Origin: Thermoplasmatota archaeon
Lineage (GTDB): Archaea > Thermoplasmatota > SW-10-69-26 > JACQPN01 > JAIVGT01
NCBI GenBank assembly: GCA_035541015.1
Contig: DATLFM010000097.1
Location: forward strand, 719-64,718
Direction: 5' to 3'
Length of the DNA: 64,000 nt
Part shown: in pieces, positions 5,960 to 39,743 of the stretch
Layout: every line of letters starts with the position of its first letter
Position numbering within the stretch: the first letter of the stretch is position 1
Made by a program: the position numbers and the translations under genes
The notes under the pieces: generated by a model
Databases searched by the model: none
What the model saw: the letters and a program-made list of their open reading frames with translations, nothing else
What the model was told of the DNA's origin: nothing

Positions 5960-6137
5960 CCTTTCCACTCCCGACCTTCCGTCGTGAAAAGACCGACGGC
6001 GGCATCGAACTTCGGCCGCAGACGACGACGCGGCGATCCTGAAACGAACGTGCCTTGGCTCTCGAGCGTGCCCCCTTGCGGCCCGCGCCCCCGCGAGCGC
6101 ACAATATTCGGTGGCCGACGTTGAACCTGCCGCCGGA

Positions 6138-7680: not shown

Positions 7681-9825
7681 ATGCGCGCGCTTCTGGCGAC
7701 GGCTGCCCTCGGTGCGGTCCTCCTGTCGGCCCTGTGGCTTGCCGGCGACGCGTCCGCTGCGCGGGAGTCGACCGTGGTCGCGCTTGCCTACAACGTCGAC
7801 GTTACCCAGCCGACCCTCCTTGACCAGGGCATCGTGCAGGTGACCCTGGAGATTCGAAACGCGCGCGATCGGGTCCTCAACTTCACGTTGCGCACGGCGA
7901 CGCACGAGTACGCTGTCCTGCGTCTCTTCAACGATCTTGGCGGGACCCTGCGGCAGCACGCGGGCGGCTGGAACTTCACGCCGACCTCGGACGTCGCGTC
8001 CTTCATGTACGAGATCAACGTGCGCAAGCCCGCCACCACGCCCAGCGAGTACAACAGCTGGCTCTCGCCGGCCTTTGGCGTCGTGAAGGCCGAGGCGTTG
8101 TCCATCCCGTTCGATTACACCTACTACTGTCCCGTCGGATGGACCGGCGGCCAGCCGTGCCCGGGCCCGAACTTCACGGCCGCGGTCACGTTCCGGCTGC
8201 CCGCCGGCTGGAACGTCGAAGCCCCATGGGAGGCCACGGGCCCCGGTCAGTTCGTGCTCCCGGCCGGCGACGCGATCCGCGGCGTGCTGCCGCGCGGCTT
8301 TGTCGCGCTGGGTCCGTTTTCGGGCGAGTCGCAGGAGCGCGCGGGCAAGACGTTCGTGTACGCGCGCCTCTCCGGCGAGCTTGCGGACCGCTCCGTGATC
8401 TTCGACTACCTCGAGGCGGCCACGCCCTACTACGCAAGCGTGTACGGCAACGTCACGCGCGACAAGATCCTCGTCATCAGCGCGGGCGCGCCCATGTTCC
8501 ACGGGGGCCTCGGGTCGACCGACTCCCTTTTCGTGCACCAGAACGCCACGCTGAAGACGATCGCGCACGAGTACGCGCACACGTACCAGATGTTCCAGGC
8601 GCACAACGTGGCCGGCGCCTCGACGATCTGGATCAACGAGGGCGACGCGGACTATCACGGCGCGATTTCGCGCTTCGTCGCGGGCTTCCTCTCGCTCGAC
8701 CTCCTCAACGCCGAGCTTCGAAGCGAGTACGAGAACCGCACCCAGGACCCCAACCGCGGCGAGGTTGCGCTCACGAGCCCCGTGTACGGGGCCGACGACC
8801 AGCAGGTCGCCTACCGCAAGGGCATGTTCACGCTTGCGCACCTGGGATCCGAGCTCTCCGGCGCCACGAACGGCCGCGCCACGCTTGCCACCATCATGAC
8901 CGCCCTCAACCAGGAGTACGTCGAGAACATCAGCCGGAACACGAGCCGGCTGCCACGCGTCACGAACGACGACATGCTCCGCGTGGTGAACCGGCTGGCG
9001 CGCTCCGACGGCGTGCTCGTGGACTTCTCGACGTTCTTTGATCTCTACGTCTTTGGCCCGACCTACCCGCCGTTTCGGGAGGTCGTCGCGCTCGAGGACA
9101 TCGTGCTCGAAGCGCTGCGGGCCTCACCCTCGCCCGCCCTGCCCGGTCAGCCGGTGCAGGTCACGGTGGAGGCGCGCAACCGCGGCCCCACGGCGGCGGA
9201 GCGCGTCATCACGCTTCGCGTGGGCGGTCAGGTCGTGGGGACGCAAACGTTGTCCCTTGGCATCGGGGAATCGGGAAGCGCCCGCTTCGTCTGGACGCCC
9301 GACGAGCCGGGCGACTACGTCCTTGAAGCGGCCTACCTGCAGCGGATCCTGCCCGTGCTCGTCCCGGCCGAGTTCGCCATCGTGGGTATGGACCCCACGC
9401 CCACGTTCCCCATGGCGCTGCGACCCTTCGACGTGGTCGTCTTCGTGCGCAACACCGGGCAGGCTCCCGGGGAGGCCCTCGTGCGCGTGAATATCGGCGA
9501 GACCGAACGCACGGCGGCGCTCTCGATCCCCGGCGGCGTCACCGCGCGCGCGAGCGTCGCGTTCACGCTCCCGGAGGCCGGCGAATACGAGATCGCCGCT
9601 CGGCTGGACGGGTCGGAGGCGCCGCCCCGGCGGCAGACCTTGCGCGTGGACGAGCTCGACAGCGACGGCGACGGCGTTCCCGACGCGCGCGACGCGTACC
9701 CGCACAACCCAAACCTTTGGGAATCGAATCCGGTGAACGACGTCCGCAACGCGACGCCGGCGTGGGAATCGCTGCCGCTTGCGGTGGGGTTCTGCGCGCT
9801 CCTCCTGCGTCGGCGGCGCGCCTAG
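7681..9825 (+). CDS. Secreted HExxH zinc metalloprotease with tandem CARDB domains, an Asp-rich Ca-binding repeat and a C-terminal membrane anchor
   Basis: The signal peptide is MRALLATAALGAVLLSALWLAGDASA. The zinc-binding motif is TIAHEYAHTYQ (HExxH). There are two CARDB-like beta-sandwich segments (PGQPVQVTVEARNRG... and FDVVVFVRNTGQAPGEA...). A thrombospondin-type-3-like DSDGDGVPDARDAYPHNP repeat is present. The C-terminus is LPLAVGFCALLLRRRRA. Confidence 0.7.
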   Translation: MRALLATAALGAVLLSALWLAGDASAARESTVVALAYNVDVTQPTLLDQGIVQVTLEIRNARDRVLNFTLRTATHEYAVLRLFNDLGGTLRQHAGGWNFTPTSDVASFMYEINVRKPATTPSEYNSWLSPAFGVVKAEALSIPFDYTYYCPVGWTGGQPCPGPNFTAAVTFRLPAGWNVEAPWEATGPGQFVLPAGDAIRGVLPRGFVALGPFSGESQERAGKTFVYARLSGELADRSVIFDYLEAATPYYASVYGNVTRDKILVISAGAPMFHGGLGSTDSLFVHQNATLKTIAHEYAHTYQMFQAHNVAGASTIWINEGDADYHGAISRFVAGFLSLDLLNAELRSEYENRTQDPNRGEVALTSPVYGADDQQVAYRKGMFTLAHLGSELSGATNGRATLATIMTALNQEYVENISRNTSRLPRVTNDDMLRVVNRLARSDGVLVDFSTFFDLYVFGPTYPPFREVVALEDIVLEALRASPSPALPGQPVQVTVEARNRGPTAAERVITLRVGGQVVGTQTLSLGIGESGSARFVWTPDEPGDYVLEAAYLQRILPVLVPAEFAIVGMDPTPTFPMALRPFDVVVFVRNTGQAPGEALVRVNIGETERTAALSIPGGVTARASVAFTLPEAGEYEIAARLDGSEAPPRRQTLRVDELDSDGDGVPDARDAYPHNPNLWESNPVNDVRNATPAWESLPLAVGFCALLLRRRRA

Positions 9826-23551: not shown

Positions 23552-24334
23552 TCACCGCGGCGGGCGGGCTTGGGCGCGCTCGGCGCGATACAGCCGCAGC
23601 ACGCTGATGCGCCATCGGAGGTGCAGCGCGTTTCCGACGAATCCGAACAGTTGCCGGAAGCCGAGCTTGGAGGCGCCGTGCTCCCGCTCGCGGAAGGTGA
23701 TGGGCACCTCCTCGATGCGGAAGCCCTTCCGGTAGACGATCGCGAGGAAGGACGTGAGGAAGGAATATCCCTTGTTGGCCTGGAGGTGGTCCCACGGGAT
23801 GGCCTCCACAACCTCGCGCGTGAAGGCGCGGTAGCCGTTCGTGTTGTCGCGCACGGGGTAGTTGCCGGCGATGAGGCGCGCGACGAGGAGGTTGGCCACG
23901 CGCGTCGTGAGCCGTCGCATCCACGGGCGGCCCACGACGACGCTCCCGCGCGCCAGGCGCGAGCCGATCGCAAGATCGGCTCCCGCGTCGAGCCGATCCA
24001 GCAGGCGTGGAAGGTCCGCGGGGTCGTGCGAGAGGTCCGCGTCCATCGAGAGATAGCGGTCGGGATCGAACCGGCGGCGGATCGTCTCGACCGCGTCCTT
24101 GTACGCGGCGCCGTAGCCTTCCTTGGCCGCGCGGTGGTGGACCGTGACGAAGTCGGGGTGGCGCCGCGAAAGCTCGTCGGCGACCTTGCCCGTGCCGTCG
24201 GGGCTGTTGTCGTCCACGACGACAAAGCGCGCGTTTGGGAGGCCAAGCGCCCGGAGCCGCTCGACGAGGAGCGGGAGGTTCTCGCGCTCGTTGTACGTGA
24301 GCGTGAAAAGGACTAACGACGGCGCTTTGCTCAT
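23552..24334 (-). CDS. GT2-family glycosyltransferase, dolichol-phosphate sugar synthase-like (DPM1/GtrB-like)
   Basis: The N-terminus SLVLFTLTYNERENLPLLVERL...VVVDDNSPDGTG carries the DxD-type GT2-A signature. The ORF extends to 24361, but the Met at 24334 precedes the conserved N-terminus. Confidence 0.8.
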   Translation of the reverse strand: MSKAPSLVLFTLTYNERENLPLLVERLRALGLPNARFVVVDDNSPDGTGKVADELSRRHPDFVTVHHRAAKEGYGAAYKDAVETIRRRFDPDRYLSMDADLSHDPADLPRLLDRLDAGADLAIGSRLARGSVVVGRPWMRRLTTRVANLLVARLIAGNYPVRDNTNGYRAFTREVVEAIPWDHLQANKGYSFLTSFLAIVYRKGFRIEEVPITFREREHGASKLGFRQLFGFVGNALHLRWRISVLRLYRAERAQARPPR

Positions 24335-24402
24335 CGCCCGCTCTCCTTGCGCATCGGCCACGGAACCTTTATGATGGCATCCCCGCGTGGCGGCCCCATC
24401 CG

Positions 24403-25695
24403 GTGGCTGCGATGACGGGCGACGGCGCGGCGGAAACCATCGAGCAGGTCAACCGACTCGTGGACAAGTACTTTTCGCGAGACCCCGCGTCGTTCTCCGT
24501 TCCCAAGGGACGGCTCCCGCTCGTCGTCCCAAGCTACGGGCCCGAGGAGGTCAAGGAAGCCGTCGAAGCGCTCCTGACAAGCTACGTCACGATGGGCGCA
24601 AAGGTGCGTCAGTTCGAGGAAGCCTGGTCGCAGTACCTTGGCTCCCGCTCGAGCATCATGGTGAACTCGGGCTCGAGCGCCAACCTGCTGGCCCTCTTTG
24701 CCGCCGCCAACCCGCACACGCGCGGGCGCCTCATGCCCGGCGACGAGGTCCTCGTTCCGGCCATGTGCTGGTCGACGACCGTGTACCCCATCGTGCAGGC
24801 GGGCGCGATCCCCGTGCTCGTCGACGTCGACCCGCAGACGCTCACCATGGACCCGCAGGCGGCGCGCGCGGCCCTCACCGACAAGACGCGCGCGATCATG
24901 CCCGTGCACCTCCTTGGCAACGCGGCCGATATGCGCGAGCTCTCTCGCCTGGCCGACGAGCGGGATCTGTGGCTCATCGAGGACTGCTGCGAGGCGCACG
25001 GCACGACGATCGACGGACGCAAGGTGGGAACCTTCGGCGACCTTGGCACGTACAGCTTCTTCTTCTCGCACGCCATCACGACGATCGAGGGCGGCGCGAT
25101 CAACACCGACGACGACGATCTCGCCGAGCTGCTGCGCCCGCTGCGCGCGCACGGGTGGATCCGGGAGATGAAGACGCGCGAAGCCATCGCCGCGCGTCAT
25201 CCGAACGTCGACCCCCGCTTTTTCTTCGTGAACGTCGGGTTCAACGTGCGGCCGACCGACCTGCAAGGCGGCTTTGGCATCCACCAGGTCCGCAAGCTCG
25301 AGTCCTTCGTCGAGGCGCGCCGACGCTACGCGCACGCGATCACGAAGGGCCTCTCCCGCCATGCCTCGGTGCTCGAGCTTCCGACCGAGCGCCCCGGCAC
25401 CCGGCACTCGTACTTCACGTATCCCGTGATCGTGCGCGAGGGCGCGCGCTTCCGGAAGGAGGACCTCATGCGCCATCTAGAGGCCCACGGCGTCGAGACC
25501 CGTCCGATCATCTCGGGGAACTTCGCCGAGCATCCTGCCTTCGGGCTCCTTCCCGCGCGCGTGGCGGGCTCGCTTCCCGCGGCCTCGCACGCGCACCGCG
25601 ACGGGTTCCTCTTCGGCGCACACCACCGCTTCGGCGAGGAGCAGGCGCGCTACGTCGTCGAGTGCTTCGATTCGTTCCTGCGCAAGCAGGACTGA
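24403..25695 (+). CDS. DegT/DnrJ/EryC1-family PLP enzyme with the ColD/E1-type 3-dehydratase signature (active-site Lys replaced by His)
   Basis: 430 aa. In the motif CEAHGTT...GTYSFFFSHAITTIEGG the canonical SF..K..TTGEGG lysine position is His. The start is GTG 24403 or ATG 24412. Confidence 0.8.
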   Translation: MAAMTGDGAAETIEQVNRLVDKYFSRDPASFSVPKGRLPLVVPSYGPEEVKEAVEALLTSYVTMGAKVRQFEEAWSQYLGSRSSIMVNSGSSANLLALFAAANPHTRGRLMPGDEVLVPAMCWSTTVYPIVQAGAIPVLVDVDPQTLTMDPQAARAALTDKTRAIMPVHLLGNAADMRELSRLADERDLWLIEDCCEAHGTTIDGRKVGTFGDLGTYSFFFSHAITTIEGGAINTDDDDLAELLRPLRAHGWIREMKTREAIAARHPNVDPRFFFVNVGFNVRPTDLQGGFGIHQVRKLESFVEARRRYAHAITKGLSRHASVLELPTERPGTRHSYFTYPVIVREGARFRKEDLMRHLEAHGVETRPIISGNFAEHPAFGLLPARVAGSLPAASHAHRDGFLFGAHHRFGEEQARYVVECFDSFLRKQD

Positions 25696-25753
25696 CGCGC
25701 GGGGCGCTCGCGTTCCCGAAACCTTCTTGTGCGCGCTTTGGCTTGGGGTCGGC

Positions 25754-26722
25754 ATGAAGCGGGCGCTCATCACGGGCATCACGGGCCAGGACGGCTCGTA
25801 CCTCGCCGAGCTCCTTCTCCAGAAGGGCTACGAGGTGCACGGGCTCGTCCGGCGCCTGAGCGTCCCCAACTTCTCGAACCTCGAGGCCATCAAGGACCGC
25901 ATCGTCCTCCACGACGGCGACATGCTCGACTCGGCCTCGCTCCAACGCATCGCCGCCGACGCGAAGCCCGACGAGGTCTACAACCTCGCGGCGCAGTCGT
26001 TCGTGCACGTCTCCTTCGGCCAGCCCGTTCTCACGAGCGACGTGACAGGCGTGAGCGTCTTCCGCCTGCTCGAAGCGGTTCGGCAGCGGGCGCCCGACGC
26101 GCGCTTCTACCAGGCGAGCTCCTCCGAGATGTTCGGCCTTGCCGCCGTCTCGCCGCAGGACGAGCGGACGCCGTTCCACCCGCGCAGCCCCTACGGCGTT
26201 GCCAAGGTCATGGCCTTCTGGGCGACCGTGAACCACCGCGAGAGCTACGGCATGTACGCGACAAACGGCATCCTCTTCAACCATGAGTCGCCGCGGCGTG
26301 GGCTCGAGTTCGTCACGCGCAAGATCGCGCGCGGCGTCGCCCGCATCGCCGAGGGCCTCGACCGCAAGCTCGTGCTTGGCAACCTCGACGCCAAGCGCGA
26401 CTGGGGCTACGCGCCCGAGTACGTGGAGGGCATGTGGCGCATGCTGCAGCACCCGCAGCCCGACGACTTCGTGCTGGCGACGGGCGAGTCGCACACGATC
26501 CGGGAGTTCTGCGAGCTCGCGTTCAAGGAGGTCGGCGTCGGTAATTGGGAGAAGCACGTCGAGAGCGACCCGCGCTTCTTCCGCCCCGCCGAGGTCCACG
26601 CGCTCTGCGGCGACGCGACGAAGGCGCGCACGCTCCTTGGCTGGAAGCCCAAGACGACCTTCCCGCAGCTCGTCTCGCTCATGGTGCAGGCCGAGCGCGA
26701 GCGGCTTCGCGCCAAGCCGTGA
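25754..26722 (+). CDS. gmd: GDP-mannose 4,6-dehydratase
   Basis: The sequence MKRALITGITGQDGSYLAELLL...YNLAAQSFV...YGVAKV...NHESPRRG... is a near-textbook Gmd. The start is the internal ATG at about 25754, within ORF 25727..26722. Confidence 0.9.
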   Translation: MKRALITGITGQDGSYLAELLLQKGYEVHGLVRRLSVPNFSNLEAIKDRIVLHDGDMLDSASLQRIAADAKPDEVYNLAAQSFVHVSFGQPVLTSDVTGVSVFRLLEAVRQRAPDARFYQASSSEMFGLAAVSPQDERTPFHPRSPYGVAKVMAFWATVNHRESYGMYATNGILFNHESPRRGLEFVTRKIARGVARIAEGLDRKLVLGNLDAKRDWGYAPEYVEGMWRMLQHPQPDDFVLATGESHTIREFCELAFKEVGVGNWEKHVESDPRFFRPAEVHALCGDATKARTLLGWKPKTTFPQLVSLMVQAERERLRAKP

Positions 26723-26725
26723 CGC

Positions 26726-27178
26726 TCAGCGCCGGCCGTAGGTCCAGTGGAAGTTGAGCGCGTAGTTGAACGAGAAGGCGCACAGCACGGCAAACAGCGC
26801 CGAGACCATGTAGGGGAAGCCCGCAAGCTCGGTGAAGGCAAAGAGCGCCGCCACGTTGATGCAAAGCCCGCCGAGGTTCACGACCTCGTAGCGGGCGAAC
26901 CGGCCGGCCCGAAGCCCGCTTCGCCGGTCGTGGAACGTGAAGGCGTCGTTGAGGAGAAAGTTCGTGACGATGGCCGTCTGGGTGGCGACGGCGCCGCTTG
27001 CGAGGTAGTACAGACCCGCGAACTCCGTGAGCGTGTAGAGCACGGCGAGGTTCACGCCGACGCCGCTTGCGCCCACGAGCATGAAGCGCAGCAGGCGGTG
27101 CGCCTCGAGGAAGGCGAGGCGGCGCCGGGCGTGGCCCGCAAGATCGAGCGCGCCAAGCCCGCCGCGCGGGGGGTCCAT
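26726..27178 (-). CDS. GtrA-family membrane protein (putative polyprenyl/dolichyl-phosphate-sugar flippase)
   Basis: 150 aa with 4 TM segments, forming the C-terminal portion of spurious ORF 26726..29218. The sequence RFMLVGASGVGVNLAVLYTLTEF...NFLLNDAFTFH is the GtrA family pattern. Confidence 0.7.
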   Translation of the reverse strand: MDPPRGGLGALDLAGHARRRLAFLEAHRLLRFMLVGASGVGVNLAVLYTLTEFAGLYYLASGAVATQTAIVTNFLLNDAFTFHDRRSGLRAGRFARYEVVNLGGLCINVAALFAFTELAGFPYMVSALFAVLCAFSFNYALNFHWTYGRR

Positions 27179-27259
27179 GGACTCCGCAAGACGCGCGCTC
27201 CGCATAAAGGAACAGGATTTGGAAACCCTTATCCGAGCGCTCGCTTTGCGTTGGAACCG

Positions 27260-29398
27260 ATGCTCGGGATCGCGCGGTGGGCGCTCCTCGGGTACGTCGG
27301 GCTCGCGCTTGCGCTCACCGCCCGGCTGCTCGCCTCGTTCCCGCACACGTGGCCGCGCGGTCCCGACCTCTACAACCTGTTCCTCCACCCGTTCCTCACG
27401 GCGCAGGGCGACTGGCTTTGGACCTCCCTTTCCGGCGCGGGCCACCCGCTGCACGCGCACCCGTTCAGCAGCACGTGGTACCCGCTCACGACCGGCCCCG
27501 TCGCGCTTCTGGGCCCCGAGCTTGGCGTCTACGCCATCCTCCTCGTGCACCTGGTCCTGGGCGCCGTGTTCTTCGACGTCCTCGCGCGCCGGTACGTTCC
27601 CGACCCGGCGTGGCGGTTCGTCGGCGCGTCGATCTTCCTGCTCGGCGGCTGCTTTGCGTCCCGGGTGTTCGCCGGCCACCTCGTGTTCCTTCCCAGCATC
27701 GCCTGGGCCCCGCTTGCGCTCCATTTCCTGCTGCGCGTCGCCGACGGCGAGGGCCTCCGGCCCGTGGTTGGCGCGGGCGTGGCGATCGGCGTCATGCTGC
27801 TGGGCGACGTCCACGTTCCCTTGTACATGGGCTTGGCCGCGCTTGCGCTCATGGCGACGGACGGCTTCGAATGGCCGACGGGGCGCTGGGCTCTCCCGCG
27901 CCTGCGGCCGCGGGTCCTGCTCGCGCTTGTGGCGGTCTTCCCCGTGGCCGCCGCCGTTGCGGCCGTGAAGGTGCTTCCGCTTGCCGAGTTCAGCTTCGTC
28001 GTAGGCCGCGTGGTCGAGCCCCTGTACGCGAGCATGGGCCTCTACGACCAGATCGCGTCCTTCCTCTCGAACGCGCGGTGGCAGATCCCGCAGGTGAACT
28101 TCGAGGAGCGCAACGTCTTCATCGGCCCGCTCGCGTTTGGCCTTGCGATCGCCGGCGCCTTTGCCTTCCCCGAGAAGCGCCGGATGCTCGCCCTCGTCGC
28201 CGTGCTCGTGATCTGGATCCAGGGGTTCTTCACGCCGCTTGGCGTCCTGCACCAGCTCCCCGTCCTGTCGATGCTTCGCGCGCCCGCGCGGGCCATGATG
28301 GTGCTCTTCCCGCTCGTGGTGCTCCTGGCCGCCGTGGGCCTTGCACGCCTGCCCCACTGGCTCGACCGCCTGGCGCCGGACCGTGCGCGCTGGCTTTGCC
28401 GCGGAACGCTTGCGCTTGCGGGCCTGCAGGCGCTTGAGATCGTGATGCCCGCGCTCGTGTTCCTCGTCATGCCGGCGATGTACGCGCGGTTCACCGAGAT
28501 CACGTCGTACGACGTGCGCCCGCTCGACCTGCTGTCGGTCGTGGCCGGCGTGCTCGTGGCCGCGCTCGTGCTGTCGCGCATGGGGCAGCCGATCCGTTGG
28601 CCTCCCCGTTGGCTTCCCCAGGGGCTGGCGCTGTTCATCGTGGGCTCGCTCCTTGCCGTGAACGGAAGCCTCTTCACGCCCGCCCCCTACCCCGGGCAGA
28701 CGGACGCGAGCGCGGAGCTTGCCGCCGCGCTTCCCCAGGAGGGCTACCATCTCGTGGAGCCCGACGGCGTGACCGACCTCTTCCTCGTCGCGAAAGGCGT
28801 TCCGACGCTGGAGGGCGTCGAGGGCCACAGCCTCGAGTGGATCAACGAGCCAAGCCTGCTTCTCGGGCGGGGCCCGCGCGCCTACCGCGTGGGCGAGCGC
28901 GTCCTGCATTGGCGCGACTACCTCGTGACGAACGCCACAGCGGAGAAGCACGCCAACGACTCGTCGCTGCGCCTTGTACAGACGCTCCACACGAAAGCTT
29001 TGGGCCCCCTTCTCCTGTACGAGGATCTGCAAGCCGCTCCACCGGCCTTCGTCGTGCGCGGAAGCGACGTGCAGCCCGCGAGCCTGCGGGCGATCGGCGG
29101 AGGCTCGATCGTGATCGATGCGCCGGCGCTTTCGGCGGGGGAGCGCGTGACGGTCAAGCAGACGTACTACCCCGGCTGGACCGTCTCGACCCCCGGCTTC
29201 CGCGTGGTCGACGATCAAGGCATGATCGCGGCCGAGGCCACGGCCGACTTCGCCGGAGGCGACGTTCGCCTTTCGTTCTCGCCGCCGCTTTTCTGGATCG
29301 GCGCGGCCATCGCGATCCCGACGCTTGCCGCGGCGGCCTGGGTTCTGGCTGGGGGCCGCGCCGCACTTGCGCCAAGGATCGGGCGTCTCCGGCCCTAG
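27260..29398 (+). CDS. Large polytopic membrane protein with a C-terminal extracytoplasmic domain. It may be a GT-C-like, dolichol-phosphate-sugar-dependent glycosyltransferase (AglS/YfhO-like).
   Basis: 712 aa from the ATG at about 27260, inside ORF 26747..29398. It has at least 12 predicted TM helices, then a 230-aa soluble domain and a final TM. It is divergent from the GtrA gene across an 81-bp intergenic region. Confidence 0.55.
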   Translation: MLGIARWALLGYVGLALALTARLLASFPHTWPRGPDLYNLFLHPFLTAQGDWLWTSLSGAGHPLHAHPFSSTWYPLTTGPVALLGPELGVYAILLVHLVLGAVFFDVLARRYVPDPAWRFVGASIFLLGGCFASRVFAGHLVFLPSIAWAPLALHFLLRVADGEGLRPVVGAGVAIGVMLLGDVHVPLYMGLAALALMATDGFEWPTGRWALPRLRPRVLLALVAVFPVAAAVAAVKVLPLAEFSFVVGRVVEPLYASMGLYDQIASFLSNARWQIPQVNFEERNVFIGPLAFGLAIAGAFAFPEKRRMLALVAVLVIWIQGFFTPLGVLHQLPVLSMLRAPARAMMVLFPLVVLLAAVGLARLPHWLDRLAPDRARWLCRGTLALAGLQALEIVMPALVFLVMPAMYARFTEITSYDVRPLDLLSVVAGVLVAALVLSRMGQPIRWPPRWLPQGLALFIVGSLLAVNGSLFTPAPYPGQTDASAELAAALPQEGYHLVEPDGVTDLFLVAKGVPTLEGVEGHSLEWINEPSLLLGRGPRAYRVGERVLHWRDYLVTNATAEKHANDSSLRLVQTLHTKALGPLLLYEDLQAAPPAFVVRGSDVQPASLRAIGGGSIVIDAPALSAGERVTVKQTYYPGWTVSTPGFRVVDDQGMIAAEATADFAGGDVRLSFSPPLFWIGAAIAIPTLAAAAWVLAGGRAALAPRIGRLRP

Positions 29399-30081
29399 GC
29401 CCGGACGCCTTCGGCTTGCAGGAACTCCTGCCAGTCCAGGCGCGGCCAGCCGCGCGCCGTCTCGAGCGCCTCCCGGTTCGAGGGTCCCACGAGGGGCGCG
29501 ATGCGTCGGGCCGTCGCCAGGAACTGGATGACGCGCAGCGTTTCCAGCGGCTCGCGGGCAAACGCGTGGGCGGAATCGACGATGTCCCCGTACGCGGCTT
29601 GCGTGTGCTCCAACGTGTCGCCCGCGTCCACGACCTCCGGGCAGTCGATGCAGACGCCAAGCTCGCGACCCATCGGTTTCAAGGGAAAGGCGCGGCAGGC
29701 GAGCGGCCTTTCATCGTACACCGAGCAGACGCCGCCTGGCGCGCCGGAGGGGCCGACGATCCAGGACGGGTCGCCGGGCGAGAACTCGCGGAAGAAGACG
29801 CACGTGTCGTGCGTCGCGCGGTAGCCCACGACGAGCACGCGCGAGGAGGCGAGGTCGAGCACGCCGTCGGTGGGCTCCATCTGCCACGCAAGCCCGCGCC
29901 GGCTCGCGACGGGCAGCAGGCGCGCGCGCTCGGCGCTCGTGAGGGGAAGGCCGGCCGTGTCGCTCAGCCGGTAGACCGGCCCTCGGCGGTCCGGCCACTC
30001 GTACACGTGCTGCATGAGGGAGCGGCAGCAGTGGCCGCAGGAGGTGCACTCGAACCGCGTTTCGGGGGCGGTGCCGTTCAA
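29395..30081 (-). CDS. YkgJ-family cysteine-cluster (CxxCxxCC) Zn/Fe-binding protein
   Basis: The N-terminus is MNGTAPETRFECTSCGHCC. A second Cys cluster lies downstream. Confidence 0.65.
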   Translation of the reverse strand: MNGTAPETRFECTSCGHCCRSLMQHVYEWPDRRGPVYRLSDTAGLPLTSAERARLLPVASRRGLAWQMEPTDGVLDLASSRVLVVGYRATHDTCVFFREFSPGDPSWIVGPSGAPGGVCSVYDERPLACRAFPLKPMGRELGVCIDCPEVVDAGDTLEHTQAAYGDIVDSAHAFAREPLETLRVIQFLATARRIAPLVGPSNREALETARGWPRLDWQEFLQAEGVRA

Positions 30082-30347: not shown

Positions 30348-31484
30348 TCAACGCCCAAGGTCCGAAACGACCCTTGGGAACGCCTCGGCGAACCGCTTGC
30401 AGTCGGCCGCGGGAACCGTGAACGAGACGCGCACGAACCGCCGGCCGAACCGTTCGGAGACGTACGCTCCGCCGCGCACGAACACCCCGTGCTCGAACAG
30501 GAGCTTCTCCTCGATTGCGGCCGGGTCGACGCCCGTCGCGGAGACGTCGATCACGAACAGGTTGGCGTGGGACGGGTAGACGGGCAGGAAGGCGCCCTCG
30601 ATCTTCGCGACGGCGTCCTTGATGAGCGCCTGGTTCTCCCGGCAGGTCCGAAGCATCCCCGGCAGCCACTCCTTCTTCGTCTCGAGCGCGGCCTTGGCCG
30701 CCGCCTGCGCGAGCACGTTTACGCCCAGGGGGTTCGTATCGTAGGGCTTGCACTTGGCCATCCAGTCCGGCGGGCCAACGAGCGCGCCCACGCGGAGGCC
30801 CGCGAGGCCCGCCCACTTGCTGAAGCTGTAGATGAGGACGGTGTTCTCGGGGTAGAACTCGGTGGCAAGCGCGGGCGCTTGCGCGAAGTCGCGGTACGTG
30901 ACGTCGTGCACGAGCAGGAGGCTCCGCTCCCGCGCGAGCTCGGCGATCGCGCGCACCTCGTCGCGCGTGTAGGCGGTGCCCAGCGGGTTGATGGGGTCGA
31001 TGAGCAGGATCGCTCGCGTGTGGTCGGTGAGGGCGTCGCGGATCTGCGAGACGGTGAGCTTCCAGGGGGGCGCGTAGATGGGAAGCTCCACGGGCGTGGC
31101 CTCCGAGAGGCGGATCTGCGCGTGGATGGGGAGGAACGACGGGTCGCTCGCCACGACCTCGTCCCCGGGCGACAGGACGGCGCGCCAGAGGATGTAGCTC
31201 GCCTCGAGGCCGCCGTGCGTGATCAGGACGTCGTGGTTGGGCGTTCCGAGGTCGTCCCGGACGAGTTGGGGAAGGCCCGGGAGGCCCTTCTTCAGCGGAT
31301 ACTGGTGGTGGAGCCCCCGATCCATGGCTGCCAAGACGGCACCCCGGATCCGCGGCGAGCCGGGGAGGTAGTTCGTGTTCTGGCTCATCCAGACCACGCC
31401 GGGCGTGCGGTGGGCGTGCTCGAACGGGTCGACCGCCATCGCGCCGGATAGCCGCTCCGCGGCCAAAACGCTTGTGCTCTCCAT
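30348..31484 (-). CDS. Pyridoxal-phosphate-dependent aminotransferase, class I/II
   Basis: 378 aa. The PLP-lysine region is YSFSKWAGLAGLRVG, in an aminotransferase fold-type I layout. Confidence 0.8.
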   Translation of the reverse strand: MESTSVLAAERLSGAMAVDPFEHAHRTPGVVWMSQNTNYLPGSPRIRGAVLAAMDRGLHHQYPLKKGLPGLPQLVRDDLGTPNHDVLITHGGLEASYILWRAVLSPGDEVVASDPSFLPIHAQIRLSEATPVELPIYAPPWKLTVSQIRDALTDHTRAILLIDPINPLGTAYTRDEVRAIAELARERSLLLVHDVTYRDFAQAPALATEFYPENTVLIYSFSKWAGLAGLRVGALVGPPDWMAKCKPYDTNPLGVNVLAQAAAKAALETKKEWLPGMLRTCRENQALIKDAVAKIEGAFLPVYPSHANLFVIDVSATGVDPAAIEEKLLFEHGVFVRGGAYVSERFGRRFVRVSFTVPAADCKRFAEAFPRVVSDLGR

Positions 31485-36041: not shown

Positions 36042-37613
36042 GTGCCCGCCTCGCTGCTGTTCCGCAACGGCACGATCCTCACCATGGACCCCGCCCGCCC
36101 GCGGGTCGAGGCCCTCGCCGTCGGCGGCGGGCGCATCCTCGCCGCAGGCTCGCTCACGGAGGCGCGCGCGTTCGCAGGTCCGGGCACGCGGGTCGTCGAC
36201 CTTGGCCGACGCTGCCTGCTTCCGGCCTTCGTGGACGCCCACACGCATCTCACCCACTTTGGCCTCGACCTCTCGCGCCTGGACCTCTCGCAGGCCCGAA
36301 GCCTCCGCTCGGCGCTCGCCTCCCTGCGCGTCCGCGCCGCGCGCGCCAAGCCCGGCGCTTGGATCGTCGCACACTCGTTCGACGAGACGCGCTGGCCCGA
36401 GAACCGGCTTCCCACGCGCGCGGACCTCGACGCCGTCGCGCCCAACCGCAAGGTCCTTCTCCGCCGCGTGGACGGCCACAGCGCCGTCGTGAGCTCCGCC
36501 GCGCTCGTTCGGCTGGACCTGCGGGGGGTCGAAGGCGTCGAGCGCAAGGCGGGCGTCGCCACGGGCGTGCTGCGCGAGGACGCGGCGGACCGCGCGTACG
36601 AGGCCGCCCGGGCCACGCGCGAGGAGGTCGACGCGGGCTTGCGGAGGGGGGCGCGGCGGTTGCACGCGATGGGCGTGGCAAGCGTGGCCGAGACCTCCGA
36701 AGCGTGGGAGGCACGGGCGTATCGTCGCCACGCCCGCTCCGGGCGGCCGCTTGTTCGGGCGTACCTCAAGGCGCGCGAGTCGTTGCTCGACGAGGCGCTC
36801 GCCCGGGGCACCGCGGGCGACGCGTGGATCCGCTGGGGCGGCGTGAAACTGTACCTCGACGGGAGCTTTGGGTCGCACACGGCTGCGCTCTCGGAACCGT
36901 TTGCCGACGCGCCCGACGTGCGCGGGCTCCTCACGTACTCGGATGCGCGCTTGCGGTCGATCGCGCGGCGGGCGCACGCGGGCGGGCTGCAGCTTTGCAT
37001 GCACGCGATCGGCGACCGCGCGATCGACCAGGCGTTGGCGGCCGCGGCCGACGCGCAGCGGTCGCGCGCCCGCGCCGACGCGCGTCATCGGATCGAGCAT
37101 TTCCTTCTTCCCTCGCAGGACGCGATCGAGCGGGCGCGGCGCCTGGGCGTCGTGGCAAGCGTGCAGCCGAACTTTTTGGGCCGCTGGGGCGGCAAGGACG
37201 GGTTGTACGAGCGACGGCTGGGCGTGCGGCGCGCGTCGCGGTTGCTGCCGCTTCGCGACATGGCCGACGCGGGCGTGCGGATCGCCCTCGGGAGCGACGG
37301 CATGCCCTACGGTCCCCTGTTTGGCATCCATTCGGCCGTGAACGCGCGTTACCCCCGCCAACGGCTGACGGTCGACGAGGCGCTGCGGGCCTACACGGCC
37401 GACGCCGCTTGGGCGTGCCATGCGGAGGATCGCGTTGGAAGCCTTTCGCCGGGGAAGCTTGCGGACCTCGTCGTGCTCTCGCGCGATCCGCGTGAGGACC
37501 CGACCCGCATCGACCGGCTCTCCGCGGTCGCCACGTACCTCGACGGAAAGCTCGTGCACGGGGCCGTCTACCGCAGGCTGTCGAGCCAGCGGTCGGCGCG
37601 CAGCAGGCCGTAG
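36042..37613 (+). CDS. Metal-dependent amidohydrolase (Amidohydro_3/YtcJ-like)
   Basis: The metal-binding motifs are HTHL, MHAIGD, the IEH block and ALGSDG. The likely start is GTG at about 36042 (VPASLLFRNGTILTMDP), in frame within ORF 35724..37613, whose 5' part overlaps the tRNA. Confidence 0.8.
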   Translation: MPASLLFRNGTILTMDPARPRVEALAVGGGRILAAGSLTEARAFAGPGTRVVDLGRRCLLPAFVDAHTHLTHFGLDLSRLDLSQARSLRSALASLRVRAARAKPGAWIVAHSFDETRWPENRLPTRADLDAVAPNRKVLLRRVDGHSAVVSSAALVRLDLRGVEGVERKAGVATGVLREDAADRAYEAARATREEVDAGLRRGARRLHAMGVASVAETSEAWEARAYRRHARSGRPLVRAYLKARESLLDEALARGTAGDAWIRWGGVKLYLDGSFGSHTAALSEPFADAPDVRGLLTYSDARLRSIARRAHAGGLQLCMHAIGDRAIDQALAAAADAQRSRARADARHRIEHFLLPSQDAIERARRLGVVASVQPNFLGRWGGKDGLYERRLGVRRASRLLPLRDMADAGVRIALGSDGMPYGPLFGIHSAVNARYPRQRLTVDEALRAYTADAAWACHAEDRVGSLSPGKLADLVVLSRDPREDPTRIDRLSAVATYLDGKLVHGAVYRRLSSQRSARSRP

Positions 37614-38641
37614 CCGTACCGATCGTCGTGCGCAAGTCCCGACGCGCCGGCAAGCGGCCCGATCTTCTGCGCCGAGGCGGCAAGCGCGCTCTTCACGGCG
37701 CCGATGTGGCCGGCCCGGCTTCCCTCGCGCTTGAATTCGGGCTTGGCCTCGAGAAGGAGCGCAAGGGCGGCGGCCACGTACGGCGCGGCTTGGCTCGTGC
37801 CGTCGGCCGTCGCGTACTGCCCGCCGCGCCAGGGCCCGAGGATGCCCACGCCCGGCGCGACGATCTCGGGCTTGCGGTCGGGATTCTGCCGCGCGCCCAC
37901 GAGGCCGCCCACCACGCCGCCGTTGTCGCCCCGCTGGCTGAACGACGCGATGCGAAGGTTCCGGTCCACGGCGCCCACGGCGATCACGTCCTTCACGCTC
38001 GCCGGGCTTGCGACGTCGCCGTTTCCGCCGCCCTCGCGGTTGCCCGCGGCCGCGACGACGAACACGCCCGCGCGCAGCGCGTCGGAGACGGCGTTCTCCG
38101 TTTCCGTCCCAAGGAGGAGGCCCTTGGCGCCGCCCAGGCTCATGAGGATGACGTGCGCGCCTTGCGTCTTGGCCGTCGTGACCGCGCGCGCGACCGTCGT
38201 GTCCGATCCCTCCCCGCCGGCCCGGATGGCCTTGATGACGAGGAGCTCGACGCCCGGCGCGGAGGGCGCAAGCTTCACGCCGCTTAGGATCTCGGCCCAG
38301 AGACCCGTCGCGCCGACGACGAGGCCCGCCACGTGCGTGCCGTGCCCGTTGTCGTCGTACGGCTTGCCCTGCCCGTTCACGAGATCGGCCCATCGGACGG
38401 TGCGGCCCGCAAACGCCGGATGATCGGGATCGATGCCCGTGTCGATGATGGCAAGCCGCACGCCCGCCCCCGTGAGCCCGCGTCCGGCGAGCGTGGAAAG
38501 GCCCGTGGCCTCGCGAGCCCACTCGGTCTGCGCCACGCAGCCGGCAAGCGAGGGGACGAGGAGGAGGGCGGCAAGGGCAAGGCCAAGCGGCTGCGCGCGC
38601 ACGACAACGCGGAAGCGCCCGCGCGGGAAAACGTTTTTCAT
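37568..38641 (-). CDS. Subtilisin-like serine protease (S8), predicted lipoprotein
   Basis: The likely start is MKNVFPRGRFRVVVRAQPLGLALAALLLVPSLAGC, with a lipobox LAGC. An alternative GTG start is at about 38602. S8 motifs IIDTGID, DDNGHGTHVAG and GTSQAAPYVAAALALL are present. Confidence 0.8.
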   Translation of the reverse strand: MKNVFPRGRFRVVVRAQPLGLALAALLLVPSLAGCVAQTEWAREATGLSTLAGRGLTGAGVRLAIIDTGIDPDHPAFAGRTVRWADLVNGQGKPYDDNGHGTHVAGLVVGATGLWAEILSGVKLAPSAPGVELLVIKAIRAGGEGSDTTVARAVTTAKTQGAHVILMSLGGAKGLLLGTETENAVSDALRAGVFVVAAAGNREGGGNGDVASPASVKDVIAVGAVDRNLRIASFSQRGDNGGVVGGLVGARQNPDRKPEIVAPGVGILGPWRGGQYATADGTSQAAPYVAAALALLLEAKPEFKREGSRAGHIGAVKSALAASAQKIGPLAGASGLAHDDRYGYGLLRADRWLDSLR

Positions 38642-39743
38642 GCCACCCCCGGCTGCGGAGCCGATGCCCGGCGCGCTGCTTTTGGCCCACGACCGCTTCG
38701 ACCCGCTGTGGGGGAAGACGGCCGTATGCATCCTCCGCTACAACCCCGGCCGCGCGGTGGCCGTCGTGGACCGCAGCAACGCCGGCCGCGACGCGGGCGA
38801 GGTCGTTGGCCCCGTCGGCCGCGGCGTGCCCGTCGTCGCGTCGGTCGAAGAGGGGCTGCGATTTGGCCCCGACGAGGTCGTGATCGGAATCGCGCCCGTG
38901 GGAGGCGCCCTCCCGGACGCCTGGCGGCCGGACCTCCGCGCGGCGCTCGACAACGGCCTCGGCGTCGTCTCGGGCCTTCACACCTTCCTCGCCGACGACC
39001 CCGAGCTGTCCGCGCTTGCGCAAAAGAGCGGCGCAAGCATCGTGGACGTCCGCCGGCCGCCAGCCGAGAAGCGCATCCTCGACGGCTCGGGGCGCCGGGT
39101 CCGCGCGCCCGTCGTCCTCACGGTCGGCACGGATTGCTCCTCCGGCAAGATGACGACCGCCGTGGAGATCGTGCGCGCCGCCCGCGCGCGGGGCCTTCGG
39201 GCCGCGTTTGCCGCGACGGGGCAGACGGGGATCATGATCGGCGCCGACGCGGGCGTCGCCGTCGACGCCGTCGTCTCCGACTTCGTGGCGGGCGCGACCG
39301 AGCGCCTCGTGCTCGAATGCGCCCGCTCCGACCCCGACCTCATCGTGGTCGAGGGTCAAGGCACGCTCACGCATCCCGCCTACGCGGGCGTCACGGCAAG
39401 CCTTCTGTTCGGGGCCTGCCCCGACCTCCTCGTGCTCTGCCACGACGCGCGACGCAAGGAGATGAAGGGCTTTGGCGCAAAGCTCCGCTCGCCGCGCGAG
39501 GAGATCGCCCTCAACGAGACGCTCCTGTCCGGTTGGACGCGCGGGAAGGCGTGCGCCGTCTCGCTCATGACGCTTGGTCTCTCCGAGCGCGCGGCCAAGG
39601 ACGCCGTCGCCCGCGTGCGCCGCCAGACCCGGCTGCCCACGACCGATCCCGTGCGCTCTGGCCCAAAGCCGCTGCTCGACGCGGTGCTCGCGCGCGCCGG
39701 AAAGATCCCCGGCAAGCGCGCCCTCCGGAGGCTGAAGCGCTGA
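38640..39743 (+). CDS. DUF1611-family protein (Rossmann-like, typically partnered with dipeptide epimerase)
   Basis: The start ATG at 38640 overlaps the opposite-strand S8 start codon. The alternative Met at 38664 gives MPGALLLAHDRFDPLWGKTA. The family assignment rests on overall pattern and on the conserved partner gene downstream. Confidence 0.6.
   Translation: MPPPAAEPMPGALLLAHDRFDPLWGKTAVCILRYNPGRAVAVVDRSNAGRDAGEVVGPVGRGVPVVASVEEGLRFGPDEVVIGIAPVGGALPDAWRPDLRAALDNGLGVVSGLHTFLADDPELSALAQKSGASIVDVRRPPAEKRILDGSGRRVRAPVVLTVGTDCSSGKMTTAVEIVRAARARGLRAAFAATGQTGIMIGADAGVAVDAVVSDFVAGATERLVLECARSDPDLIVVEGQGTLTHPAYAGVTASLLFGACPDLLVLCHDARRKEMKGFGAKLRSPREEIALNETLLSGWTRGKACAVSLMTLGLSERAAKDAVARVRRQTRLPTTDPVRSGPKPLLDAVLARAGKIPGKRALRRLKR

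What the first reader, a model, noticed from the sequence alone, without database searches (positions are those of the whole stretch)
24403..25695. DegT-family enzyme with active-site Lys replaced by His (SFFFSHAITTIEGG), the ColD/E1 3-dehydratase signature, in an archaeon
In sugar aminotransferases the PLP Schiff-base lysine sits in SF(Y/H)xxK..TTGEGG. Here that position is histidine. Established biochemistry shows this substitution converts the fold into a C-3 deoxygenating dehydratase, as in ColD of GDP-colitose synthesis and E1 of CDP-ascarylose synthesis. Together with the adjacent gmd, this predicts GDP-3,6-dideoxyhexose chemistry. 3,6-dideoxy sugars are classically bacterial O-antigen components and are essentially unreported in archaea.
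Basis: partly seen in the sequence, partly recalled or inferred. Interest (0 to 1): 0.7.

Follow-up and report, generated by a model that had tools for sequence, protein, structure and literature searches.

The report
Archaeal ColD-type sugar 3-dehydratase gene
An uncultured Thermoplasmatota archaeon carries a ColD-type enzyme predicted to remove the 3-hydroxyl from a GDP-activated 6-deoxy sugar, placed next to genes that would load the product onto a lipid carrier and attach it outside the cell; the enzyme is an ordinary member of a large family, and only the lipid-carrier setting is unusual.

Summary
ORF 24403-25695 (+) encodes a DegT-fold protein whose motif SFFFSHAITTIEGG (25054-25095) has His (25069-25071) exactly where sugar aminotransferases have the Schiff-base Lys. 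It aligns with ColD His188 and E1 His220. The protein lacks the E1/SpnQ [2Fe-2S] cysteine insertion, so it is ColD-type. A bona fide gmd follows it, and the contig is archaeal.

Two caveats apply.
- The family is not rare. There are thousands of relatives at about 50% identity, and 13 of the best 80 species-level loci are archaeal, including cultured Halorubrum and Natronorubrum.
- No ColC or other 4-reductase lies anywhere on the roughly 69-kb contig, so the finished sugar cannot be named.

The most interesting part is the context. The flanking genes are a Dol-P-mannose-synthase-like GT2, a GtrA flippase and an orphan 712-aa GT-C-fold transferase. Together these look like a three-component extracytoplasmic glycosylation system fed by a GDP-3,6-dideoxy(-4-keto)hexose. 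The enzyme is a new member of a known kind, of moderate interest.

The parts
23552..24334 (-). GT2 glycosyltransferase of the dolichyl/undecaprenyl-phosphate sugar synthase type (260 aa as called by ENA; the ORF extends to 24361). It is transcribed divergently from the dehydratase gene.
   Evidence: Pfam Glycos_transf_2, 5.7e-23. Best solved relatives are the Pyrococcus furiosus dolichol-monophosphate-mannose synthase 5mlz (104.6 bits, E 6e-29), then ArnC. Weak NCBIfam matches to Dol-P hexose transferase, AglJ, PpgS and ArnC are all far below their cut-offs. The sequence carries VVVDDNS and DAD motifs.
24403..25695 (+). ColD-type (iron-sulfur-free) PMP-dependent nucleotide-sugar 3-dehydratase, 430 aa (427 aa from the ATG at 24412).
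   Evidence: Pfam DegT_DnrJ_EryC1, 1.1e-90. PDB sequence matches: ColD 251 bits, E1 246 bits. AlphaFold model pLDDT 85, with Foldseek top hits E1 and ColD at TM 0.82-0.93 depending on normalisation. NCBIfam RfbH 324 bits, below the 423 cut-off.
25054..25095 (+). Active-site motif SFFFSHAITTIEGG. The catalytic His is at 25069-25071, preceded by the Ser equivalent to ColD Ser187 and followed by an unusual Ala at 25072-25074.
   Evidence: Translations. Alignments to ColD wild type and to the H188K and H188N variants, and to E1. His in 184/184 relatives. The next residue is His in 180, Gln in 2, and Ala in this protein only.
25754..26722 (+). GDP-mannose 4,6-dehydratase (gmd), 322 aa (the ORF starts at 25727). 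It lies 58 bp downstream of the dehydratase gene on the same strand.
   Evidence: NCBIfam TIGR01472 equivalog, 432.3 bits, above the 415 cut-off; Pfam GDP_Man_Dehyd, 5e-130. It is the only extended-SDR gene in the 64-kb window.
26726..27178 (-). GtrA-family small membrane protein (150 aa), a candidate flippase for the lipid-phosphate-sugar.
   Evidence: Pfam GtrA_DPMS_TM, 4.2e-26, 91.9 bits. Gene called by ENA.
27260..29398 (+). Orphan 712-aa GT-C-fold membrane glycosyltransferase. It has about 12 transmembrane helices, then a beta-rich domain (about residues 476-673) that I infer is external, then a C-terminal transmembrane helix.

Best explanation
The gene encodes a ColD-type, pyridoxamine-phosphate-dependent 3-dehydratase.

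Proposed route:
1. Gmd converts GDP-mannose to GDP-4-keto-6-deoxy-D-mannose.
2. The dehydratase forms a Schiff base between PMP and C4 of the sugar.
3. The active-site His (which replaces the aminotransferase Lys) removes the C4' proton and the 3-OH leaves.
4. The enamine is hydrolysed to GDP-4-keto-3,6-dideoxy-D-mannose plus ammonia.
5. PMP is regenerated from PLP with L-glutamate, as in ColD. No iron-sulfur cluster or reductase partner is involved.
6. The sugar is then transferred from GDP to dolichyl phosphate by the neighbouring Dol-P-mannose-synthase-like GT2. Its 4-keto group is reduced by an enzyme encoded elsewhere, or handled at a later stage.
7. GtrA flips the lipid-linked sugar, and the 712-aa GT-C enzyme attaches it to a cell-surface acceptor outside the membrane.

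Shown computationally: the fold, the His at the Lys position, the absence of the Fe-S motif, the identities of gmd, the GT2, GtrA and the GT-C fold, and the gene order.

Inferred: the substrate, the product, the amino donor, the lipid carrier, the acceptor and the final stereochemistry of the sugar.
For: - Position of the His. It aligns with ColD H188 and E1 H220 and with the engineered K and N of ColD variants. It is invariant in 184/184 relatives.
- Preceding Ser. The Ser before the His is retained, as in ColD Ser187. The deposited structure 3gr9 is the ColD S187N/H188K double variant.
- No Fe-S motif. The 12-residue Cys-rich insertion of E1 is absent, and there is no CxC...C motif in any of 197 relatives. 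The review PMC8987622 states that this cluster is present in E1 and SpnQ and absent in ColD, and that ColD regenerates PMP with glutamate.
- Phylogeny. In a neighbour-joining tree rooted on E1, E. coli ColD nests inside the same Fe-S-free group as the query.
- gmd context. An equivalog-level gmd lies 58 bp downstream on the same strand. A close Gmd homologue lies within 10 kb in 28 of 80 related loci. The 53%-identical relative P0004 has the order ColD-like > gmd > GDP-fucose-synthase-like (ColC-like) SDR.
- Lipid-carrier route. The GT2 matches Dol-P-Man synthase at E 6e-29. GtrA matches at 4e-26. The 712-aa protein has a GT-C fold.
- Recurrence of the pairing. A small GT2 of this type lies within 7 kb of the ColD-like gene in 25 of 80 other loci, sometimes next to PMT_2 or GT87 GT-C proteins.
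Against: - No second SDR (ColC, Rmd or another 4-reductase/epimerase) is in the window or the rest of the contig. Most related loci have one right next to the dehydratase.
- The closest relative (P0002, 55%) sits with a sugar-1-phosphate nucleotidyltransferase and a 4,6-dehydratase that is not a close Gmd homologue (38% identity). Nucleotide specificity therefore varies within the clade and cannot be read from sequence.
- The residue after the catalytic His is Ala here but His in 180/184 relatives, and the model is least confident exactly there. Normal activity is therefore not guaranteed.
- The score against the NCBIfam RfbH equivalog is below its cut-off, and no ColD-specific model matched.
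- Nothing here is biochemical.
Confidence: 0.6

Rival explanations
1. The enzyme both dehydrates and then transaminates, giving GDP-4-amino-3,4,6-trideoxy-D-mannose (3-deoxyperosamine). No 4-reductase would be needed, and the pathway would resemble ArnB > ArnC > ArnT.
For: There is no 4-reductase on the contig. SpnQ shows aminotransferase activity with glutamate and PLP when no reductase is present (PMC8987622). The GT2 also matches ArnC, which handles a 4-amino sugar derivative. This protein alone has Ala after the catalytic His.
Against: The same review reports that ColD and E1 showed no such transferase activity under comparable conditions. The missing reductase can simply be elsewhere in an incomplete MAG. 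Nothing links the Ala change to chemistry.
Confidence: 0.1
2. It is a 3-dehydratase, but for a CDP-, dTDP- or other NDP-4-keto-6-deoxyhexose rather than the GDP-mannose-derived substrate.
For: The nearest relative P0002 lies beside an NTP_transferase and a 4,6-dehydratase that is not a close Gmd homologue. JGI names many relatives CDP-6-deoxy-D-xylo-4-hexulose-3-dehydrase. Only 28/80 related loci have a close Gmd homologue nearby.
Against: The only 4,6-dehydratase in 64 kb is an equivalog-level gmd, immediately downstream on the same strand. No sugar-1-phosphate nucleotidyltransferase was seen on the contig. The partner GT2 is most similar to a GDP-mannose-using Dol-P-Man synthase.
Confidence: 0.08
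3. The gene encodes a catalytically impaired or repurposed protein, because the almost invariant second His of the SHH motif is Ala.
For: Ala occurs only in this protein among 184 relatives. Model confidence is low at residues 220-224.
Against: The ORF is intact with normal codon bias. All other invariant family positions are kept. The same sequence appears in two independent assemblies. In sugar aminotransferases, the position after the Lys varies between families (my own recollection, not checked here).
Confidence: 0.05
4. It is an ordinary sugar 4-aminotransferase (perosamine-synthase-like) that makes GDP-perosamine from the Gmd product.
For: It has the DegT fold. GDP-perosamine synthase is the next-best solved relative after ColD and E1. 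NCBI's label is 'DegT/DnrJ/EryC1/StrS family aminotransferase'.
Against: There is no Schiff-base Lys in register. The Ser-His pair of the dehydratases is present, and the deposited ColD variant changed at both positions is S187N/H188K (3gr9). It scores about 70 bits higher against the dehydratases than against perosamine synthase.
Confidence: 0.03
5. It is an E1/SpnQ-type dehydratase that uses a [2Fe-2S] cluster and an external reductase.
For: The overall score to E1 is nearly equal to that to ColD, and the protein shares E1's N-terminal extension. A CxxCxxCC-domain protein is encoded nearby at 29395-30081.
Against: The Cys-rich insertion is absent and no Cys is available in that region. No E3-type reductase was seen on the contig.
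Confidence: 0.02

Closest known systems
ColD (WbdK), GDP-4-keto-6-deoxy-D-mannose 3-dehydratase of E. coli O55 (PDB 2gms, 3b8x, 2r0t, 3gr9)
   Same: DegT fold. Ser-His in place of the aminotransferase Asn-Lys. RAHGWxR segment with no Fe-S cysteines. gmd as neighbour. Falls in the same Fe-S-free group in the tree.
   Different: Only about 35% identity. Has an extra N-terminal segment of about 35 residues that is shared with E1. Ala instead of His after the catalytic His. No ColC partner on the contig. The host is an archaeon, and the neighbours are lipid-carrier glycosylation genes rather than an O-antigen cluster.
E1 (AscC/DdhC/RfbH), CDP-6-deoxy-L-threo-D-glycero-4-hexulose 3-dehydrase of Yersinia (PDB 3bcx, 3bb8)
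   Same: His at the Lys position. Full-length alignment including the N-terminus. Best structural match, TM 0.89-0.91.
   Different: Lacks the [2Fe-2S] cysteine insertion. No E3 reductase, CDP-glucose 4,6-dehydratase or cytidylyltransferase nearby. Below the RfbH equivalog cut-off.
GDP-perosamine synthase and other DegT-family sugar aminotransferases (Per, ArnB, PseC)
   Same: Same fold and cofactor-binding framework. Same class of NDP-4-keto sugar substrate.
   Different: They keep the Schiff-base Lys; this protein has His.
Three-component (multi-component transmembrane) glycosylation systems: GtrA/GtrB/GtrC, CsbB/GtcA/YfhO, ArnC/ArnE-F/ArnT
   Same: Same three parts side by side: a GT-A-fold polyprenyl-phosphate sugar synthase, a GtrA-family protein and a GT-C-fold transferase, as defined in PMC8035078 and PMC11127046.
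   Different: The known systems in those reviews move glucose, galactose, GlcNAc, L-Ara4N or pentofuranoses. Here the linked sugar-nucleotide genes predict a 3,6-dideoxy(-4-keto)hexose. The host is archaeal, so the carrier would be dolichyl phosphate. The GT-C belongs to an unnamed family only distantly related to YfhO.

Membership tests
ColD-type nucleotide-sugar 3-dehydratase | Fold-type I / DegT aminotransferase fold | tested here: met
   Pfam PF01041, 1.1e-90. AlphaFold model matches ColD and E1 at TM 0.82-0.93 depending on normalisation.
ColD-type nucleotide-sugar 3-dehydratase | His replaces the Schiff-base Lys | tested here: met
   Aligns with ColD H188 and with its H188K and H188N variants. 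His in 184/184 relatives. Feature defined in PMC8987622.
ColD-type nucleotide-sugar 3-dehydratase | Ser before the catalytic His (ColD Ser187) | tested here: met
   FFSHA aligns with ColD FYSHH. PDB 3gr9 is the ColD S187N/H188K variant.
ColD-type nucleotide-sugar 3-dehydratase | No [2Fe-2S]-binding cysteine motif | tested here: met
   The E1 insertion DCYCAPGCDNTC is absent and the segment contains no Cys.
ColD-type nucleotide-sugar 3-dehydratase | Genetic linkage to GDP-mannose 4,6-dehydratase | tested here: met
   gmd lies 58 bp downstream on the same strand; TIGR01472 scores above its cut-off.
ColD-type nucleotide-sugar 3-dehydratase | Linkage to ColC (GDP-L-colitose synthase), which completes the colitose pathway | tested here: not met
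   tblastn with 133 SDR sequences finds only gmd in the window. No further SDR appears in the gene tables of the contig.
ColD-type nucleotide-sugar 3-dehydratase | Glutamate-dependent conversion of GDP-4-keto-6-deoxymannose to GDP-4-keto-3,6-dideoxymannose | not testable with these tools
   Requires an enzyme assay.
E1 (RfbH/DdhC/AscC) CDP-hexulose 3-dehydrase | Four-cysteine [2Fe-2S] motif | tested here: not met
E1 (RfbH/DdhC/AscC) CDP-hexulose 3-dehydrase | NCBIfam RfbH equivalog score | tested here: not met
   324.1 bits against a cut-off of 423.
E1 (RfbH/DdhC/AscC) CDP-hexulose 3-dehydrase | E3 reductase and CDP-glucose pathway genes nearby | tested here: not met
   None appear among the annotated genes of the contig. 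A few short ORFs in the first 15 kb were not scanned.
DegT-family sugar aminotransferase | Schiff-base Lys in the SFxxxK motif | tested here: not met
   His is at that column and there is no Lys within the motif.
Three-component extracytoplasmic glycosylation system | Polyprenyl-phosphate sugar synthase (GT-A/GT2) | tested here: met
   Met by homology only: Dol-P-Man synthase 5mlz, E 6e-29; ArnC, E 3e-12.
Three-component extracytoplasmic glycosylation system | GtrA-family (or other) flippase | tested here: met
   Pfam GtrA_DPMS_TM, 4.2e-26.
Three-component extracytoplasmic glycosylation system | GT-C-fold transferase | tested here: met
Three-component extracytoplasmic glycosylation system | Lipid-phosphate-sugar donor made inside the cell and used outside | not testable with these tools
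   Requires biochemistry or genetics.

The most novel reading that the evidence does not exclude
The five-gene cassette (GT2, ColD-type dehydratase, gmd, GtrA, GT-C) is a self-contained archaeal system. It would make a dolichyl-phosphate-linked 3,6-dideoxyhexose, or its 4-keto or 4-amino derivative given that no 4-reductase is present, and install it on the cell surface from outside the membrane. If so, it would be both a documented route to 3,6-dideoxy sugars in Archaea and the first polyprenyl-phosphate-linked donor of this sugar class. The recurrence of ColD-like plus small GT2 plus polytopic membrane protein in other archaeal and bacterial loci would make it a widespread, undescribed theme.
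Probability: 0.3. Interest if true: 0.6.

Novelty: new member of a known kind. Interest (0 to 1): 0.4.

Why it matters
3,6-Dideoxyhexoses are textbook bacterial O-antigen sugars. A genome survey of 303 archaeal genomes found most such rare sugars absent from Archaea (PMC7725333).

This gene and its many archaeal relatives indicate that archaea widely encode the key deoxygenation step. Some loci are near-complete, as in cultured Halorubrum tebenquichense. The sugar class is probably under-reported in archaeal glycans rather than absent.

The link to a Dol-P-Man-synthase-like GT2, GtrA and a GT-C enzyme suggests these sugars can be delivered through lipid-phosphate donors outside the cell. None of the three-component systems listed in the two papers I read (PMC8035078, PMC11127046) does this.

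Practically, the finding also flags a mis-annotation. NCBI labels the protein an 'aminotransferase', whereas it is predicted to be a dehydratase.

Tried and rejected
- E1-type mechanism. Rejected after aligning with the 3bcx sequence, because the Fe-S insertion is absent.
- Search for a ColC or Rmd partner. tblastn of 133 SDR neighbours from related loci against the window hit only gmd. The remainder of the contig beyond the window has none either (a first look-up with the wrong start codon failed).
- Homologues of the 712-aa protein. The word-indexed search found only itself, so the exhaustive search was needed. Its best orthologue sits on a 2.9-kb contig that gave almost no context.
- Polytopic membrane proteins next to the small GT2 in ten other loci. 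Eight had no Pfam match and two had only weak or unrelated matches (EpsG/DUF6798; Polysacc_synt), so I could not call any of them GT-C.
- Nucleotide specificity from active-site residues. The Arg residues I recalled as pyrophosphate ligands are invariant in ColD, E1 and the query alike, so they are uninformative. The Holden-lab structural paper could not be fetched.
- Literature searches. 'ColD' matches the word 'cold', which wasted a search. The phrase '3 6-dideoxy' with 'archaeal' returned nothing, which I do not treat as evidence of absence.
- The class I/II aminotransferase at 30348-31484 and the CxxCxxCC protein at 29395-30081. I considered them as partners and set them aside for lack of any recurrent linkage.
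Full report
**The observation**

ORF 24403-25695 (+) is real. It is 430 aa with a GTG start and a third-position GC of 0.90 in a 69% GC window. NCBI and ENA call the same gene from the ATG at 24412 (427 aa, P0001). NCBI names it 'DegT/DnrJ/EryC1/StrS family aminotransferase [Candidatus Thermoplasmatota archaeon]'. The quoted motif SFFFSHAITTIEGG is encoded at 25054-25095 and its His at 25069-25071.

Pfam places the protein in DegT_DnrJ_EryC1 (1.1e-90). Among all solved structures the best sequence matches are the two characterised 3-dehydratases. These are E. coli ColD (2gms, 251 bits) and Yersinia E1 (3bcx, 246 bits), well ahead of GDP-perosamine synthase (184 bits) and other aminotransferases.

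In those alignments the His pairs with ColD His188. It also pairs with the Lys and the Asn that crystallographers engineered at that position (2r0t, 3b8x) and with E1 His220.

**Which kind of 3-dehydratase**

The review PMC8987622 gives the defining features. All nucleotide-sugar 3-dehydratases replace the catalytic Lys by His. E1 and SpnQ additionally bind a [2Fe-2S] cluster through four cysteines and need an external reductase. ColD has no cluster, hydrolyses the enamine intermediate and regenerates PMP with glutamate.

The E1 sequence has the insertion RDWGRDCYCAPGCDNTCKK after the active-site strand. The query has a gap there and reads RAHGWIRE, like ColD's RAHGWTRN. None of 197 relatives examined has a CxC...C motif in that region. 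The Ser that precedes the His in ColD is kept. Ser187 is one of the two positions changed in the deposited S187N/H188K variant, 3gr9.

An AlphaFold model (pLDDT 85) matches E1 and ColD at TM 0.82-0.93 depending on normalisation. In a neighbour-joining tree rooted on E1, E. coli ColD nests within the same Fe-S-free assemblage as the query. The query falls near haloarchaeal and Thorarchaeota sequences. That tree is crude and I use it only for this coarse statement. The protein is therefore ColD-type, at about 35% identity to ColD itself.

**Substrate and pathway**

The next gene, 58 bp downstream on the same strand (25754-26722), passes the NCBIfam equivalog threshold for GDP-mannose 4,6-dehydratase (432 against 415 bits). 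This supports GDP-4-keto-6-deoxy-D-mannose as substrate and GDP-4-keto-3,6-dideoxy-D-mannose as product.

The pathway is incomplete here. A tblastn search with 133 SDR proteins taken from related loci found only gmd in the 64-kb window. The gene tables of the contig, including the 4.6 kb beyond the window, show no other SDR.

In relatives a second SDR is usually adjacent.
- It is GDP-fucose-synthase-like (that is, ColC-like) in L084 (the locus of P0004), L020 and Nitrosopelagicus L018.
- It is a more generic SDR in Halorubrum tebenquichense, with Rmd among its best matches.

So neither colitose nor any other finished sugar can be named for this organism. The reductase may be elsewhere in the MAG. 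Alternatively the keto sugar may be processed after transfer, or the enzyme might also transaminate its product. SpnQ does this without its reductase, although ColD was reported not to.

Nucleotide specificity is also an inference. The closest relative (P0002, 55%) sits with a nucleotidyltransferase and a 4,6-dehydratase that is not a close Gmd homologue (38% identity). A close Gmd homologue lies within 10 kb in only 28 of 80 related loci.

**The neighbourhood**

The dehydratase and gmd are embedded in a compact cassette flanked by housekeeping genes. SRP54 and FolD lie on one side and a class I/II aminotransferase on the other.

- Upstream, transcribed divergently, is a 260-aa GT2. Its best solved relative is the Pyrococcus furiosus dolichol-monophosphate-mannose synthase (E 6e-29), followed by ArnC.
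- Convergent with gmd is a GtrA-family protein (Pfam 4e-26).
- Next is a 712-aa protein with about 12 transmembrane helices, a beta-rich domain that I infer is external, and a C-terminal helix.

A GT-A polyprenyl-phosphate sugar synthase, a GtrA flippase and a GT-C transferase are exactly the parts that define three-component extracytoplasmic glycosylation systems (PMC8035078; PMC11127046). My reading is that the GDP-sugar made by Gmd and the dehydratase feeds such a system, with dolichyl phosphate as carrier. This is inference from gene order and homology.

**How unusual is it**

The protein search returned more than 6,500 significant relatives among the candidates scored, most at about 50% identity. 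JGI names many of them 'CDP-6-deoxy-D-xylo-4-hexulose-3-dehydrase'.

A scan of one genome per species found at least 589 loci. Of the best 80, thirteen are archaeal: Halorubrum tebenquichense DSM 14210, Natronorubrum sulfidifaciens JCM 14089, two Thorarchaeota, Bathyarchaeia, Nitrosopumilaceae, Nitrosopelagicus, Heimdallarchaeum, Nitrososphaerales, two Micrarchaeota, Aenigmatarchaeota and Woesearchaeota. The Halorubrum locus reads GT2, gmd, SDR, ColD-like, GT4, GT2. That is a near-complete predicted GDP-3,6-dideoxyhexose cluster in a cultured archaeon.

The papers I could search contain no report of such sugars in archaea. A survey of 303 archaeal genomes concluded that most rare sugars are absent from the domain, while admitting that its profiles were built almost entirely from bacterial sequences. 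The gene is therefore a new member of a known family. The gap lies in biochemical description, not in genomic occurrence.

**What is distinctive**

First, the cassette couples a 3-dehydratase to lipid-carrier glycosylation genes. This is not unique to the window. A small GT2 of the Dol-P-Man-synthase type lies within 7 kb of the ColD-like gene in 25 of the 80 other loci. In about half of these a polytopic membrane protein lies within about 500 bp of the GT2. Examples:
- Woesearchaeota L048: ColD-like, GT2, then a 12-TM protein.
- Nitrosopelagicus L018: GT2, a PMT_2-type GT-C, ColD-like, a 4,6-dehydratase, a fucose-synthase-like SDR, GT2.
- A bacterial locus, L071, with a GT87.

Most of these membrane proteins have no family assignment, so the generality of the theme is suggestive only.

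Second, this protein alone among 184 relatives has Ala instead of His immediately after the catalytic His. The model's confidence drops below 50 exactly at residues 220-224. I do not know the role of that second His. It could be irrelevant, or it could bear on the missing reductase problem.

**Verdict**

The enzyme is a ColD-type, iron-sulfur-free 3-dehydratase in a Thermoplasmatota archaeon, most likely acting on the Gmd product.

Confidence by step:
- ColD-type 3-dehydratase assignment: high.
- GDP substrate: moderate.
- Dolichyl-phosphate three-component route: lower.
- Identity of the final sugar: none.

Interest is moderate at 0.4. The enzyme itself is an expected family member. The value lies in pointing to an unrecognised sugar class in archaeal surfaces and to a possible lipid-phosphate-linked 3,6-dideoxyhexose donor.

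Noticed in passing
window 25072-25074 (residue after the catalytic His): The motif reads SHA where 180 of 184 relatives, including ColD and E1, read SHH. Two Pelagibacteraceae read SHQ. Ala occurs only in this protein. The AlphaFold model has pLDDT below 50 exactly at residues 220-224 (427-aa numbering).
   Followed up: partly
window 27260-29398: The 712-aa GT-C-fold protein belongs to an unnamed family. It has no Pfam match, only two orthologues above 40% identity among 1.8 billion representatives, and distant links to YfhO and PTPS_related. An Asp at position 36 is nearly invariant across the aligned relatives.
   Followed up: yes
L048 3875-7584; L018 1752-8228; L015 8962-16180; L061 7058-11170; L071 3300-6458: The arrangement of a ColD-like gene, a small Dol-P-Man-synthase-like GT2 and a polytopic membrane protein recurs in archaea and bacteria. 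The membrane protein is PMT_2 in L018 and GT87 in L071, and unassigned elsewhere.
   Followed up: partly
L026, L030-L036, L038, L047, L051, L054, L060 (alphaproteobacterial clade): Here the ColD-like gene sits with an HddA-like heptose-7-phosphate kinase, a GmhB/HddC-like fusion and pyruvate-dehydrogenase-E1-like alpha and beta subunits. This hints at 3,6-dideoxy-heptose or branched-chain sugar synthesis rather than colitose.
   Followed up: partly
L006 7111-13448 (Halorubrum tebenquichense DSM 14210): A cultured haloarchaeon carries the gene order GT2, gmd, SDR, ColD-like, GT4, GT2. This is a near-complete predicted GDP-3,6-dideoxyhexose glycan cluster that could be tested directly.
   Followed up: partly
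L004, L005, L008, L009, L014 (Rokubacteria): The most similar bacterial relatives have no gmd within 10 kb. In L009 a B12-binding radical-SAM-like protein lies directly upstream of the ColD-like gene. That assignment is from reading the sequence, not from a family scan.
   Followed up: no
window 24335-24411 and 27179-27259: Both short divergent intergenic regions contain A/T-rich TATA-like elements in an otherwise 69% GC sequence (TTTATGAT at about 24369; CATAAAGG and CCTTATCC at about 27203-27233). These are plausible archaeal promoters for the cassette.
   Followed up: no
window 1090-3495, 4742-6223, 37568-38731: Three subtilase (S8) protease genes, one with an fn3 domain. A CARDB/Ig-domain protein lies at 7681-9825.
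   Followed up: no
window 49911-51876: Adjacent carbon-nitrogen hydrolase and agmatine-deiminase-family genes. As a pair they look like a putrescine route from agmatine.
   Followed up: no
window 26726-29218 (- strand): A spurious 830-codon antisense ORF runs opposite the GT-C gene, and only its last 150 codons are the real GtrA gene. This shows how mechanical ORF lists mislead in this high-GC sequence.
   Followed up: yes
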